This document shows positions 1,010 through 63,080 of a stretch of DNA of 64,000 bases, in pieces. Every line of letters begins with the position of its first letter. The first letter of the stretch is position 1. The stretch is from Octopus vulgaris (Eukaryota). A model generated the notes under the pieces. That model searched no databases. It was not told the DNA's origin and worked only from the letters and a program-made list of their open reading frames with translations. Location: the NCBI GenBank assembly GCA_951406725.2, contig OX597821.1:76756001-76820000 (forward strand), written 5' to 3'. A program made the translations under genes and the position numbers.

Positions 1010-1203
1010 AGGCGATTTTTTTCCCTCCGTCTTCCGTTCCTTGGATCTTTACTTTTTCTATGTTTCTGATGAAGAGTTCCGCTCGAAACGTTAAATCTTT
1101 CTTCTTTCTTTCCTTTCTTGAGCGTCCAATAACACTATGCTTGTTCCGCGTCCTCGCATTGTTGTATTTTCTCTTTATGTTTTCATGTTTGGATTAACTA
1201 TGT
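1010..1203 (+). repeat. Short Penelope-type (pLTR-like) repeat carrying a hammerhead motif, family H1
   Basis: Homologous to the minus-strand copy at ~52755-52945. Contains CTGATGA...GAAAC. Confidence 0.6.
1062..1096 (+). ncRNA. Minimal type-I hammerhead ribozyme, canonical core
   Basis: GUUU-CUGAUGA-A-GAGU ucc GCUC-GAAA-CG-UU-AAAU. Stem I GUUU/AAAU, stem II GAGU/GCUC, palindromic stem III ACGU, triplet GUU. Confidence 0.7.
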
Positions 1204-1214
1204 ATGTATATATA

Positions 1215-2504
1215 CGAGGGGCATTCAATAAGTAATGCCCCTGACCCACTTCCCATAGCAGTAGAGCAACGACACTTGGCACAGTTATTAGTCTTCTTTT
1301 ACATAGGAACCACCCAGAGTTACGCATTTCTCCCATCATTTGATGCAGCTCTAGAGACTGTTTTTGTAGAAGACCCCAGCTTGGTCCTCCAACCACGACC
1401 TGACTTCAGAAATCAAGGCTGCATCATCTGGGAAACGCTTTCCTTTCAAAAACAACTTCATGGGTGGGAAGAGGTGAAAATCCGAGGGTGCAAGGTCAGG
1501 AGAGAAGGGGGATGGGGAGGAGTTCATAGCCGCACGCCTGTGCTTCTGATCTGGCGACCATCGAGTTGTGGACCGGAGCGTTGTCCTGCAGGAGGAGGAT
1601 ACCTTTGCTGATCTTGCCCCGCCTCTTGATTTTGATAGCTTCTCTTAATTTCCTCAAAAGTGAAGCATAATAGGCTCCTGTAATTGTGGTACCCTTTGCC
1701 AGGAAATCTGTCATCACTACTCCGTCCTGGTCCCAGAAGAATGTGAGCATGACCTTGCCAGCGGAGGGCTGCACCCTTGCCTTCTTTGGAGGAGGTGAGT
1801 CACGGTGTTTCCACTGCATTGACTGGGCTTTGGTCTCTGGATCATGGTGATGGATCCAGGTTTCATCTTGTGTAATCAGTCTTTTGAAAAATTTTGACTC
1901 ATCTTCATGGCACATCTCCAAATTCATCCTCGAGCACTCGACGCGTTCTTGCTTCTGGAAAGGTGTGAGCAACATGGGAATCCATCTGGCAGACACCTTT
2001 TGCATATGCAAATGGTCATGAATGATAGTTTCTACAGACCCGGTACTAATCTTGACCTCATGGGCTATTTGGCGAATAGTTATGCGTCGATCTTCCAAAA
2101 TGGCAGCCTCAACTTGACGGACAGATGCCTCATCAATGGCAGAAGGAGGGTGACCAGATCTGGGAGCTGTTTCCACAGAGTTCCGACCATGTTTGAATTC
2201 ACGATGCCAGCGTTTTACAAGGTCATATGATGGGGCATCATTACCATAAGTTACTTTCATTTCATCAAAAGTCTTCCGTGGTGTGCGTCCTTTCAAATAC
2301 AAAACCCGGATCACTGCTCGACACTCAACTGGCTCCATTTCACACTTGACTCAGTTCAAACACCTGTAAATCAGAAACCACATTAGTTCAGAGCTGTAAT
2401 TTGCCACGTAATCTATGGAGATATAAATAATTGCACATGCAAAATTTCAGCAAGATCAAACAATTACAAATGGGTCAGGGGCATTACTTACTGAACGTCC
2501 CTCG
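1215..2504 (-). mobile_element. Full-length mariner (DD34D) DNA transposon, 1290 bp
   Basis: 34-bp TIRs (cgaggggcattcaataagtaatgcccctgaccca versus the reverse complement of the right end, 3 mismatches), TA on both sides, and an internal transposase. Confidence 0.95.
1288..2338 (-). pseudogene. Mariner transposase pseudogene
   Basis: 280-aa ORF with WIPMLL, TQDETW and LQDNAPVH. A frameshift in C-runs near 1510-1520 disrupts HPP(F)SPDLAPSDF (DD34D spacing when restored), followed by in-frame TAG and TGA before the natural stop at 1288. Confidence 0.92.
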
Positions 2505-3039
2505 TATATATATATATATATATATATATATATACACACACACGAGCAAAACACCCCGCGTCCAATGGACGGTGCTGAGTTGTCAAACATTTAAACCAAA
2601 TTTTCTCAAAACAACTTGTCCGACCGTCCCATAGGTCTCCCCTTTGAGAAACACTGATTTAACCTAAATTTGAGGCACCTGCAAAAGAAGAAATAAAGAT
2701 AGACTTTTTTCTATTCCAAAGGAAAACGATTTTATTCACACAAATATGCAACCGAAGAGGATGTTTACATTTTCGGAATACCCAGAGAGAGTCAAAAAGA
2801 AAAAGAAAACAAGATAGTAAAGTTCTAAGATTTACTAAATATGGTCTTTTGTATGACCGCACAAAAAGAAATGGTCGTGTTCTTCGAATAAAAAGGAGGA
2901 GGATGTTTACATTTTCGAATACTCAGGGAGAGAGGAAGGAGAAGTAATCACACGTTAGTTGTAGATATTAAGTTTTCTTTTTAGCTAATTATTATTATTA
3001 TTATTATTATTATTATTATTATTATTATTATTATTATTA

Positions 3040-59252: not shown

Positions 59253-60528
59253 GTATGTTCTTTACACTTCTTTAATGCCTCAAATATCTTCATTTCATTT
59301 TTATGCATTTCCTAATAATATTCAATTCTAAAAACATAATGGAATTTTTTTAAACATTGAATGGACATGAGAGTCCACTTGAGTAAAATTGGAAATCAAA
59401 GGTGGGGTGGGGTCCATATGTAAAAAAAAAGAGAAAAAAAACGGTTCAGAATCACAGGTCTGATGTGTTCCTGCTTTTTTAAACAATAGGGTGTAATATG
59501 AGGAATAGTAAAGTGTAATTTGTTATTCCAACTGGGCCAAGCAAAAATATAGAAGAGGATATGTAAGAAGCTCCAGTTTGGGCGACGAGATCGAAGAGAT
59601 AACAATTCTAATAATAAATTTGCTTGTGGCTGTGTAGTAAGAAGCTTGGTTCCAGGTTCAGTCCCACTACGTGACACCATGGACGAGTGTCTTCTACTAT
59701 AGCCTCGGGCCGACCAAAGCCTTGTGAATAGATTTGGTAGACAGGAACCGAAAGAAGCATTTGTGGGCACAGGACGTCATGAAACGTGTACAACAAAAAA
59801 AATACGAAGCACGAGTACATGGAACATGAGCTATTCTTCCGAACAACGAAAGACACAAATGGAAAACAAAACAAACAACATTAAGATTTTTTTTTGTTTC
59901 GTATTTCGAGCATTTAACAATATACGCTTTCGATAAAACAGTTGCTCCATATATGTATATGTATATATATGTATATGTTTATATATATATATATATATAT
60001 ATATATATATATATATATATATATATATATATATATATATATATATATATATATATATATATGTATATATATATATATATATATATATATATATATATAC
60101 ACACACATAGATATATATATGTGTGTGTGTATATATATATATATATATATATATAATATATATATATATATATATATATATATATATATATATATATATA
60201 TATATATATATATATATCAATATATATATTTATATGTATATATATACATATATATATTTATATATGTTTGTGGGTCTGTGTTTGTCTCCCCACCAACGCG
60301 TGACAACCGATGGTTGGCGTGTTTACATCCCAGTAAATTAGCGGTGCTCCAGTATGGCCGCAGTCAAAATGACTGAAACAAGTAAAAGAAAGTGTTTTCT
60401 GCGAAACATTATGCTTTCCTTTTGATTAAGGCCCAGCGACAGGAGAGAGAGCCCCTACTTGCTCGATCGATCTACAAAGGAGTGATGATTTGAAGAAAAC
60501 TGGGAAACTTTGACGTTACTCTTTAGCT

Positions 60529-60758
60529 CTGCAGTTCTCAACCATTTCTTACCAGTGCACCCGCTTCATTCTTATTTTACTCGGGTGGACCGCCATACTC
60601 TCCGATGTTTAAAAGAATTTCTATTATATTTTTAGAATTAAATATAACCAGGGAATTGTGTATTACGGAAGCATAACCAACCCATTGCTCATAGGTTTCC
60701 ATAACCAAATCTTATATGAACGCCCAAGGGTCATTTGGACCCAGGTTGAGAACTACTG
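60529..60758. mobile_element. hAT-type MITE (same family as 13461-13700)
   Basis: TIRs ctgcagttctcaacc / ggttgagaactactg. Flanks ctttagct / ctccagct match at 6 of 8 positions. Confidence 0.7.
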
Positions 60759-62854
60759 CTCCAGCTGGTCGGCGTGACAGCATAGAATGTACCCTTTGTT
60801 GGTTCATGTATAATGGTAATTCTCAGGTTACCGTGTACCCTATTGATGGGGCTCTGACTTAATAAAAAGGAGAGAACTTGCGAAGTGTACTTTGACAGAA
60901 GGAATATTAATTAAAACACATATCTAAACGCCTATCAACATTACCGGATACAAATACAAATCATTAATAAATAAACATATGTGTATGTATGCGCGCACAC
61001 ACACACACACACACACACACACACACACACACATATATATATATATATATATATATATATATACTTTTATAATAGAAACGATATATATATATATATATAT
61101 ATATATATATATATATATATATATATCGTTTCTATTATGCAAAAGTATCGTAAGTCCAAAAGGTTGCTTTTGCAGAAAATGTAAAAATAGTTTCACCATT
61201 CCATACCAAAACTGTTGTATTACACTTTGACAATTTTTGATATCTTTGCATCTAAAGCAGCTGGAGATACGATAGTTTAACCAAAAGAACCGGCTATTAC
61301 AAGTAAAAAAAAATACTGAAAAAAAACCCCCGCATTTGGCCAAACTTGGACATACGACAGTTTAACATAATAACCACGATATATATATATATATATATAT
61401 ATATATATATATATATATATATATACATATATAATAAATCTCTGAGCGATATATATATATATATATATAACTAGGAAGATCTTTATAATGTCCATATACG
61501 GACGAACGGATACACGGATAGATGGACGTACAGGTAGATATACAGATGGATGGATGGATAAATGGATGGGTGGAGGGAGGGAGGAAGGGGGGAAGGAGGA
61601 AGGGATGACGGATAAAATAAACGGATGGATTAAAGAATGGCTAATTATATAGTCTGATGAAAATGTTTCAAGAGACACTAAGCAGGCGACGACTGAACGT
61701 ACAGTAAAACGAATGGAAAGACTGTTGCTGTTGTTGTTCAGCTGCATGTCAGTTCTAATCAATCATTGGGATTCTGACCATGACCATCCAGTCTAATTAG
61801 TGTACCTTGCACTAATGCTGAGCAAGACTCCACAGTGTACATAACATAATAACATCATCTCAAAATAAAGGATAAACTGGACGATGTGAATACTACCGAA
61901 GTGCTTTATAAATATTTACTGTGGTCTTATTGTTTTGGTTAATGTTTGAACCCAGGTCAGCTGTGACACAGAGGACACCTACCTCTTATCTTTTACTTGT
62001 TTCAGTCATTAGACTGCGGCCATGCTGGGGCTCCGCCTCGAAAACTTTAAGTAGAACGAATCGACCCGAGTACTTATTTTATGTTTTTCTTTTTAAACCT
62101 GGTACATATTTATCGGTCTTTCATTGCCAACTGCTAAGTTACGGGGCTATAAACACACAAACACTGGTTGTCAAGCGGTGTTGGGGACAAACACACACAC
62201 ACACACTCATACACACACATGATCAAAGGGTTTTCATTTTAAAGCATCGTGTATACCCGTCTACATTATTTTATCGTCCCTTTGAGGAAAGCTTGGTTGC
62301 GATCTATACAGTTCGAGTGGCCATATTGAGCTTCCCTCTTTATTCGATTTCATAACATATTTATAGAAATGCTATCATTAATTGTCAAGAGGTGCTGTCA
62401 CTTATCTGCGAGAAACGAGCTACAAAATCCCAAGTAGTAACCAATTCCTTACAAACTATTCCGATACCGCATCAAAGTCGATCACTCACGTTCTGGATAT
62501 TTAGAATTTTTAGTCTATCGATTATATTATTTCTATCAAGCAGAGACCCGGCAGAATCGTTAGCACGTTGGCCAAGCTGTATTTCTTCCATTTGTTCCGG
62601 CCCTTTACATACCGAGTTCAAATCCCGTCGACGTCGACTTTGCCTTTCATCCTTTCGAGGTTGGTAAAATATAGTATTAGTTAAGAAACCCCGCCCCTTA
62701 AAATTGCAGACCTTGTGTCAAAATTTGAAAGAATTGCACGATTAATCCTGCATCTACCACATTTAGAGTTTATTTGGTATAGAAAGAAAACATTTAGATC
62801 AGTGGTTCGCAATCTTTTTAATATCCGGGTCAGATCCCGAACTTGGATATTTGA

Positions 62855-63080
62855 TGGTACATTATTTACATTTGATGTATATTTGTTCTCATCTTGTTTG
62901 TTGTTAACACAACGTTTTGGCTGATATACTCTCCATCAGGTGTCTCGGGGAAATTTCGAACCTGGGTTCTCATTCCTAAGTTATTTTTCGATGTTGTTAT
63001 TATTATTATAATTATTCAAGAATCGAACTCGGAATCTTGGGGTTAGTAGCCTGCGCTCTTAATCACTACGCCATATGCCC
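62855..63080 (-). mobile_element. SINE-like unit: tRNA-derived Pol III head plus degenerate hammerhead (62907-62943)
   Basis: A-box TGGCGTAGTGA (63063-63073), B-box GAGTTCGATTC (63020-63030), an (AAT)n linker, then ACAC-CUGAUG..CAGCC-AAAA-CG-UU-GUGU. Confidence 0.55.

What the first reader, a model, noticed from the sequence alone, without database searches (positions are those of the whole stretch)
1062..62943. Multiple dispersed repeat families each carry a minimal, dimer-type hammerhead ribozyme (candidate cephalopod retrozyme / Penelope-parasite system)
Seen: at least eight motifs (1062+, 5866+, 7894+, 17107+, 28982-, 29566+, 31365+, 52861-, plus degenerate 62907-) share one layout. It runs short stem I, NUGANNA-type core (often with one extra nucleotide after A9), stem II, GAAA, self-complementary stem III (ACGU, ACAGCUGU, AAUU, AAUAUU, ACCGGU), UH, stem I'. 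The motifs sit in about six otherwise dissimilar ~200-bp non-coding repeats, usually next to TA arrays. Known: minimal type-I hammerheads with palindromic stem III mark Penelope-like element pLTRs and animal retrozymes, and cleave mainly as dimers. Inference: this genome hosts a diverse, high-copy set of ribozyme-bearing non-autonomous elements mobilised by Penelope enzymes (a GIY-YIG remnant lies at 22051-22330). I do not know of it being characterised in octopods, but I cannot verify novelty.
Basis: partly seen in the sequence, partly recalled or inferred. Interest (0 to 1): 0.75.

Follow-up and report, generated by a model that had tools for sequence, protein, structure and literature searches.

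The report
Hammerhead-bearing Penelope retrotransposon end pieces
The hammerhead (self-cutting RNA) motifs are really there, but each sits in the short end repeat of a known kind of protein-coding jumping gene (Penelope-like elements), so this is largely ordinary; two oddities remain, a swapped core base pair and a tRNA-like segment that may act as a promoter, and whether any of these copies still cut is untested.

Summary
The motifs are real. Six of nine pass a strict type I hammerhead descriptor, against 0 in 60 shuffles. The other three are decayed or atypical copies of families whose majority sequence has the layout. They fall into seven families.

Each family was traced to the terminal repeat (pLTR) of a Penelope-like element (PLE) coding for reverse transcriptase and/or GIY-YIG nuclease. 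They are therefore stumps of PLEs, not separate non-autonomous retrozymes. No head-to-tail array of these families was seen in 1.9 Mb of loci. A real 359-nt retrozyme array elsewhere in the genome is unrelated.

Almost all copies span the predicted cut site, so they were likely copied from uncut RNA. The kind is published, including mollusc examples and one octopus PLE hammerhead. This scan has noted it before on other pieces of this genome.

Residual interest: one family with a G3-C8 swapped core, and one whose pLTR holds a tRNA-Arg-like segment at which many copies start. Cleavage is untested.

The parts
991..1198 (+). Family A solo pLTR (Neptune-like PLE)
   Evidence: 5093 first-look candidates, best 40 at 90-93%; two A copies flank RT sequence 3.3 kb apart in L262, and A is followed by RT and GIY-YIG in L263
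1062..1096 (+). Hammerhead A1: C3-G8 core, 4-bp stems I and II, ACGU palindrome, predicted cut after 1092
5746..5985 (+). Family C 3' end (Hydra-clade-like PLE); decayed hammerhead at 5862-5913; the family has an extra nucleotide before G12
   Evidence: lies downstream of the nuclease end in 12 of 20 loci; CxCX5C, CxxC and CxH motifs; Pfam GIY-YIG E=0.004
7757..8085 (+). Family F insertion (Nematis-like PLE end): inverted arm 7757-7893 plus forward arm; hammerhead 7894-7930 with U3-A8 core and AAUU palindrome
   Evidence: 72-75% identical to the 3' end of the RT + GIY-YIG family
17097..17240 (+). Family D solo pLTR (Nematis-like PLE); hammerhead 17107-17157 with G3-C8 swapped core, 7-bp stem I and AAUAUU palindrome
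   Evidence: lies about 1-1.4 kb downstream of the nuclease end in 13 of 30 loci; G3-C8 in 36 of 45 copies
22057..23472 (+). 5'-truncated, decayed PLE: GIY-YIG remnant, microsatellite-rich 3' UTR, decayed F-type hammerhead at about 23370-23406
   Evidence: weak profile match iE 0.02 in the window and 6e-11 in L041
28826..29065 (-). Family E 3' end (young Neptune-like PLE); hammerhead 28982-29021 with U3-A8 core, 2-bp stem II and first stem I pair lost
   Evidence: best 40 copies at 95-98%; upstream ORF in 6 of 6 loci translated; homologues carry PF00078, PF26215 and PF01541
29504..29693 (+). Family B solo pLTR (Neptune-like PLE); hammerhead 29566-29601 with U at position 6
   Evidence: RT and GIY-YIG upstream in L206 and L205
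31298..31490 (+). Family B-related solo pLTR; hammerhead 31364-31401
52306..52535 (-). Further F-type 3' fragment without a recognisable hammerhead
52751..52941 (-). Family A solo pLTR, subfamily with C at position 4; hammerhead 52861-52895
62859..63128 (-). Family G 3' end (Penelope/Poseidon-like PLE): end of ORF, tRNA-like segment, (AAT)n, decayed hammerhead 62906-62943
63018..63080 (-). tRNA-Arg-like segment with A-box- and B-box-like motifs inside the family G repeat
   Evidence: best local match among 30 genomic tRNAs is tRNA-Arg(TCG), z=8.2; ARAGORN does not call it a tRNA; followed by the hammerhead part in 27 of 30 loci

Best explanation
The motifs are minimal type I hammerheads that sit in the terminal repeats (pLTRs) of seven protein-coding Penelope-like retrotransposon families, and the copies in the window are short stumps of those elements, likely made when the element's own nuclease nicked TA-rich DNA and its reverse transcriptase copied only 150-250 nt of uncut RNA. 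Shown: the motifs, their families, their link to RT/GIY-YIG sequence, fixed 3' ends at TA or AT-rich DNA, inverted second arms, and that nearly all copies span the predicted cut site. Inferred: reverse transcription starts inside the RNA about 100-190 nt downstream of the ribozyme, as shown in vitro for the anole element (PMC11167929). It then stops at a family-specific point 55-110 nt upstream of the cut site, most likely the 5' end of the transcript (about 0.55; a reverse-transcriptase stall is the alternative). Inferred from the literature: the ribozyme would cut only weakly, as a dimer or with help from the element's protein, to trim read-through transcripts. A lone stump would be silent.
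For: Descriptor 6 hits vs 0 in 60 shuffles. Coding links: A, B, C, D, E, F, G. 3' ends are fixed and followed by (TA)n in A, B, C and E. Inverted neighbours within 1.5 kb: D 9 pairs among 52 copies, E 11 among 37, G 19 among 71. An optional 3' tail is present in D and G, as described for PLEs. 5' ends within 5 nt of the cut site: A 0 of 89, B 0 of 57, C 1 of 43, D 3 of 56, E 0 of 35, G 0 of 75; the D cases are inversion junctions. In an evenly spaced 600-kb sample, 6 of 10 hammerhead-spanning A copies start 93-110 nt upstream of the cut site. Stems pair in all family majority sequences although the letters differ, and the 3-8 pair occurs as C-G, G-C and U-A. Anole PLE: internal initiation, uncut RNA as main substrate, protein-assisted cleavage.
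Against: No intact full-length element was recovered for any family; the links rest on broken or partial copies. The 7894 copy is only 72-75% identical to the F end that I linked to coding sequence, so its own subfamily could lack an ORF. The Neptune-based profile did not hit family C; C rests on motifs and a Pfam hit below the cut-off. Loci were mostly the best-scoring 20-30 of 400-5000 candidates, so rare tandem arrays or non-coding subfamilies would be missed; earlier notes report such arrays for pLTR pieces elsewhere in this genome. C and E copies often run more than 250 nt upstream, which fits ordinary 5' truncation better than a fixed stop. Clade names come from motifs, not from a tree with references. 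No cleavage or expression was measured.
Confidence: 0.85

Rival explanations
1. The families are non-autonomous retrozymes: ribozyme-bounded monomers cut from tandem transcripts, circularised, and reinserted by Penelope enzymes.
For: A true 359-nt tandem retrozyme array exists in this genome (L331). Family A has internally deleted pLTR-spacer-pLTR copies with hammerheads about 420-1150 nt apart (21 of 25 loci picked with such a junction), which could seed retrozymes. A 2026 preprint derives retrozymes from pLTRs.
Against: All seven families continue into PLE coding sequence. No head-to-tail array in 1.9 Mb of loci. The A junctions differ from locus to locus. Copies have one fixed 3' end instead of permuted ends. 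The L331 unit has no real match in the window (best: 25 nt, E=0.005).
Confidence: 0.07
2. Family G alone behaves as a Penelope-mobilised SINE: RNA polymerase III starts at the tRNA-Arg-like segment and makes a roughly 300-nt ribozyme-bearing RNA that the PLE protein reinserts.
For: tRNA-Arg-like segment with A- and B-box-like motifs. It is linked to the hammerhead part in 27 of 30 loci. Of 16 head-bearing copies not picked by the head, 12 start within about 20 nt of its start (two loci contribute two arms each). No TTTT terminator in 12 of 12 units (weak evidence).
Against: The segment is part of the coding element, right after the stop codon. A native hairpin at the same place could stall or fold back the cDNA. 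14 of 30 copies lack the head. No transcript data.
Confidence: 0.3
3. The ribozymes are mostly dead relics, carried along only because they lie inside the stretch that reverse transcription copies.
For: Family-wide departures from the consensus core: U6 in B (48 of 54), an extra nucleotide before G12 in C, and loss of the first stem I pair in the young E subfamily (29 of 31 fail the descriptor). Ribozyme mutants did not affect insertion by the anole PLE in vitro.
Against: The layout and compensatory stem and 3-8 changes are kept across seven divergent families, which points to selection on the parent elements.
Confidence: 0.25
4. The matches are chance in AT-rich, repeat-rich DNA.
For: Folding z-scores are not significant, and the descriptor was tuned on the motifs.
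Against: 0 hits in 60 window shuffles; 19 hits vs 3 in 8 shuffles of the 600-kb sample. Every family has the motif at the same place in a PLE.
Confidence: 0.01

Closest known systems
Minimal type I hammerheads of metazoan PLEs (Cervera and de la Pena 2014, PMC4209133; read: main text parts 1-2 of 4 and passages of supplementary file 2; file 1 not searchable)
   Same: Short stem I, extra nucleotide after A9, G10.1-C11.1 pair, palindromic stem III, many dissimilar families per genome, mostly single dispersed copies from truncated PLEs, U3-A8 variant. Lottia and Crassostrea examples are listed.
   Different: Octopus is not in the file searched. The density here is higher (tens of thousands vs 2,000-9,000 in the genomes they count). 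G3-C8, U6 and an insertion before G12 are not mentioned in the parts read.
Hydra clade PLEs including Hydra-1_Obim (Craig et al. 2021, PMC8557442; read: passages, section 11, supplement passages)
   Same: C-terminal nuclease with CxCX5C, CxxC and CxH motifs, (TA)n targets, type I hammerhead; an octopus hammerhead is listed in File S2.
   Different: Family C has another hammerhead sequence and a long microsatellite-rich 3' UTR, so it is a different family from Hydra-1_Obim (compared by eye).
Poseidon_Ac of the green anole (Frangieh et al. 2024, PMC11167929; read: parts 1-2 of 4)
   Same: Hammerhead in the pLTR, internal start of reverse transcription, optional tail, AT-rich targets, insertion from uncut RNA; the C3G/G8C double mutant partly restores cleavage.
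   Different: There the ORF starts inside the ribozyme. No tRNA-like segment is mentioned in the parts read, and G3-C8 was engineered rather than natural.
Animal non-LTR retrozymes (Cervera and de la Pena 2020, PMC7229834, passages; Li et al. 2026, 10.64898/2026.07.22.740005, parts 1-2 of 5, supplements not seen)
   Same: Type I hammerhead with weak stem III; proposed PLE origin.
   Different: Defined by non-coding tandem units, each with a ribozyme; the window's families are dispersed ends of coding elements.
Schistosoma Sm-alpha SINE-like elements (from a review, PMC6765202, passages)
   Same: Polymerase III promoter plus hammerhead, as possibly in family G.
   Different: Sm-alpha is tandem, non-coding and has a canonical ribozyme; in G the promoter-like segment is part of a coding PLE.

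Membership tests
Minimal type I hammerhead of PLEs | Core CUGANGA...GAAA...UH with stems I and II | tested here: met
   6 of 9 window copies pass; family majority sequences have the layout; B, C, D, E and F carry core or stem variants
Minimal type I hammerhead of PLEs | Palindromic, unstable stem III | tested here: met
   4-8-nt palindromes in all seven families
Minimal type I hammerhead of PLEs | Self-cleavage at UH as a dimer or with protein | not testable with these tools
   needs in vitro assay
Endonuclease-bearing Penelope-like elements | ORF with RT and C-terminal GIY-YIG nuclease next to the repeat | tested here: met
   broken or partial copies only; for C only the nuclease end and linker were seen
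Endonuclease-bearing Penelope-like elements | Repeat present at both ends of the ORF (pLTR) | tested here: inconclusive
   met for A (L262); for B-G only the 3' position was seen
Endonuclease-bearing Penelope-like elements | Inverted 5'-truncated arms, optional tail, TA or AT-rich targets | tested here: met
Named PLE clades (Neptune, Nematis, Penelope/Poseidon, Hydra) | Placement in an RT tree with reference elements | not tested
   assigned from linker motifs described in PMC8557442; Neptune vs Nematis labels are partly recalled
Non-LTR retrozymes | Head-to-tail tandem units, each with a hammerhead | tested here: not met
   no array among 347 family copies in 1.9 Mb of loci; only irregular neighbours, at most three in one locus
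Non-LTR retrozymes | Non-coding, separate from an autonomous element | tested here: not met
   all seven families continue into PLE coding sequence
Non-LTR retrozymes | Circular monomer RNA | not testable with these tools
   no raw RNA reads available
tRNA-derived SINE (family G) | tRNA-derived head with A and B boxes | tested here: met
tRNA-derived SINE (family G) | Copies start at the head and form an element separate from the partner | tested here: inconclusive
   12 of 16 head-bearing copies start there, but the head is part of the coding element
tRNA-derived SINE (family G) | Transcription by RNA polymerase III | not testable with these tools
   needs transcript-end or occupancy data

The most novel reading that the evidence does not exclude
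The clustered 5' ends mark transcription starts, and family G has captured a tRNA-Arg-derived polymerase III promoter in its terminal repeat. It would then make a short hammerhead-bearing RNA that spreads as a Penelope-driven SINE while still part of a coding element. Alongside it, family D would be a working natural hammerhead with a G3-C8 core.
Probability: 0.2. Interest if true: 0.6.

Novelty: new member of a known kind. Interest (0 to 1): 0.27.

Why it matters
The role of PLE hammerheads is still open. This genome offers tens of thousands of copies in many families, with natural core variants (C-G, U-A and G-C at 3-8; U6; an insertion before G12) that can be assayed side by side. The copy ends can be used to map where PLE transcription and reverse transcription start. 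For annotation, it shows that many 200-bp repeats in this genome, which can look like SINEs or unclassified repeats, are PLE stumps. It does not reveal a new class of element.

Tried and rejected
Rfam scan: the display was filled by microsatellite matches to miRNA families; no hammerhead among the 150 of 331 rows shown. The repeat finder was swamped by microsatellites.

Single-strand folding z-scores were uninformative.

Pfam on ORF fragments gave nothing convincing at E 0.01 and only weak GIY-YIG and RVT_1 hits at E 1. The PDB sequence search gave nothing. The protein Atlas gave no result. Rfam and ARAGORN do not call the family G head a tRNA.

Sequencing runs: no RNA holder listed, and contigs only, so no reads were laid.

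I first took family D and family G for stand-alone non-autonomous elements; both were then linked to coding sequence. The family G 5'-end list and the family F list used unsuitable upstream references. I used them only for the count near the cut site (G) and the majority sequence; G ends were redone.

The two SINE-like families abundant in the window gave no descriptor hit. A splice-acceptor-like motif precedes the D 5' boundary, but nothing else supported splicing.

Literature: searches, with passages, found natural U3-A8 and engineered G3-C8 but no natural G3-C8 family. Searches found no tRNA-headed pLTR. These cover open-access text only, and unseen supplements (PMC4209133 file 1, the 2026 preprint, Repbase) may hold either. 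An even sample of contig C16 was not obtained, so the C16 enrichment rests on top hits only.

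
Full report
Observation. All nine coordinates hold a short stem I, a seven-letter core, stem II, GAAA, a palindrome, UH and the partner strand of stem I. 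A descriptor written after seeing them finds six in the window and none in 60 shuffles that keep local dinucleotide content. The three misses are decayed (5866, 62907) or atypical (28982). Folding energy does not single the motifs out, as expected for such short stems. Self-comparison pairs 1062 with 52861 and 29566 with 31365, and ties 7894 to 23369-23470 and 52307-52407. That leaves seven families, A-G. The host looks like an octopus: the genome G000 has 2.8 Gb, and two named homologues of the family E protein come from Octopus bimaculoides.

Copy number. Genome searches gave 1336-5093 first-look candidates for each of A, B, C, D, E and G; these are lower bounds. In 60 evenly spaced 10-kb stretches (599,900 bases) there were 37 matches of at least 50 nt: A 11, B 10, F 10, G 4, D 2, C 0, E 0. 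This count includes split and inverted pieces. There were 19 descriptor hits, 7 of them in one tandem array, against 3 hits in 8 shuffles. Scaling the 12 dispersed hits gives roughly 55,000 intact-looking motifs (about 30,000-100,000). Scaling the 37 matches gives 120,000-240,000 family pieces. The window is about five times denser than this sample.

What the repeats are: A, B and E. Family E runs upstream into an open frame in all 6 loci translated. Homologues of that frame carry RVT_1, PF26215 and GIY-YIG. A profile built from 21 of those 68 homologues matches sequence beside A (iE to 5e-29), B (1e-35), G (1e-16), F (6e-11) and D (2e-7). Family B is preceded by RT and nuclease sequence in L205 and L206. 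Two A copies flank RT sequence 3.3 kb apart in L262, and A is followed by RT and nuclease sequence in L263, so A is a true pLTR.

What the repeats are: F, D, G and C. The remnant at 22057 continues through a microsatellite-rich tail into an F-type end with a decayed hammerhead. D lies 1-1.4 kb behind a nuclease end in 13 of 30 loci picked by that end. G follows a Penelope/Poseidon-like nuclease end. C follows a nuclease end in 12 of 20 loci. That end has the CxCX5C, CxxC and CxH motifs of the Hydra clade and a sub-threshold Pfam GIY-YIG hit; the profile missed it. Clade labels rest on motifs, and partly on recall for Neptune vs Nematis. No intact full-length element was found.

Insertion anatomy. 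A, B, C and E end at a fixed point followed by (TA)n. D and G have an optional 35-60-nt tail. Inverted arms are common in D, E and G. These are described PLE traits. Almost no copy starts at the predicted cut site: 4 of 355 lie within 5 nt, and the three D cases are inversion junctions. Instead A, B and D starts cluster 55-110 nt upstream of it. Much of that set was picked by similarity, but 6 of 10 A copies in the even sample start at -93 to -110. C and E copies often extend further. In the anole element, reverse transcription starts inside the RNA downstream of the ribozyme, uses uncut RNA, and the ribozyme cuts only with protein. The simplest reading is that the stumps are short cDNAs of uncut RNA ending at the transcript start or at a stall.

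Retrozyme test. No head-to-tail array was found among 347 family copies in 1.9 Mb of loci. Family A has pLTR-spacer-pLTR copies with internal deletions (21 of 25 loci picked with such a junction), but the junctions differ. The even sample did hit a real retrozyme: a 359-nt unit at 97-99% identity with a larger hammerhead, in a two-armed array within a TA tract (L331). It is unrelated to the window's families. So retrozymes exist in this genome, but these motifs are not them. The loci were mostly top hits, so rare arrays could be missed.

Core variants. The 3-8 pair is C-G in A, B, C and G, G-C in D (36 of 45) and U-A in E (31 of 31) and F. B has U6 (48 of 54), a subfamily of A has C4 (25 of 84), and C has an extra nucleotide before G12. 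The young E subfamily lacks the first stem I pair, although two copies keep a 7-bp stem. Natural U3-A8 is published. For G3-C8 I found only engineered cases. An A6 change gave low activity in one natural hammerhead, so some families may cut poorly.

Family G. Right after the stop codon lies a segment whose best match among 30 genomic tRNAs is tRNA-Arg (z=8.2), with A- and B-box-like motifs, then (AAT)n, then the ribozyme. Twelve of 16 head-bearing copies not picked by the head start within about 20 nt of its beginning; 14 other copies lack it. This fits a polymerase III start, but a native hairpin lies at the same spot.

Comparison and verdict. Minimal hammerheads in PLE repeats, scattered as single motifs in many families, were described in 2014 with mollusc examples. 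An octopus PLE hammerhead is tabulated in Craig et al. 2021. A 2026 octopus repeat annotation lists 31 recently active Penelope-like families and does not mention ribozymes in its main text (passages). Earlier notes of this scan reached similar readings on other pieces of this genome, including the G3-C8 family and the tRNA-like promoter; I saw them after my own tests of those points, and they are not independent support. Interest 0.27.

Noticed in passing
L331:2097-4768 (G000:C1, about 20.002-20.005 Mb): Young retrozyme array: 359-nt unit, 97-99% identical copies, five forward and two inverted hammerheads with 6-bp stem I, inserted in a TA tract; unrelated to the window's families.
   Followed up: partly
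L272-L296 (G000:C16): 23 of the 40 best matches to the nuclease end of family D lie on contig C16, with different 5' ends, so they look like independent insertions. The equivalent searches for three other families had none there. A sex chromosome or local hopping could explain it; not tested.
   Followed up: partly
L215-L239: Family A copies made of a pLTR plus the first 230-940 nt of the element joined directly to a second pLTR, with different junctions; possible raw material for retrozymes.
   Followed up: partly
L087:1450-1515 and L088:1450-1515 (coordinates on the oriented strand); window 17097: The usual 5' boundary of family D copies follows a branch-point- and splice-acceptor-like motif in long copies.
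   Followed up: no
L270:6445-7587 (-), just beyond the window's end: Open frame ending in an exon-like stretch with a motif that resembles the vestigial-like (Tondu) domain; label recalled, not searched.
   Followed up: no
L212:3500-9300: Long satellite with a unit of about 33 nt and open frames, between two near-identical family C copies 10.9 kb apart.
   Followed up: no
L214:5386-6945 (+): 520-residue RT frame with DKT and RxKWK motifs, like the Hydra clade.
   Followed up: no
window 3040-62685 (about 19 copies) and 8549-62186 (about 40 intervals): Two abundant SINE-like families with tRNA-like heads; no hammerhead found in them.
   Followed up: partly
window 14425-14530, 16866-17042, 50939-51094: Three fold-back (inverted repeat) segments, one just upstream of the family D copy.
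   Followed up: no
L337:144 (-), L375:9218 (-): Two further hammerhead-like motifs of families not present in the window.
   Followed up: no
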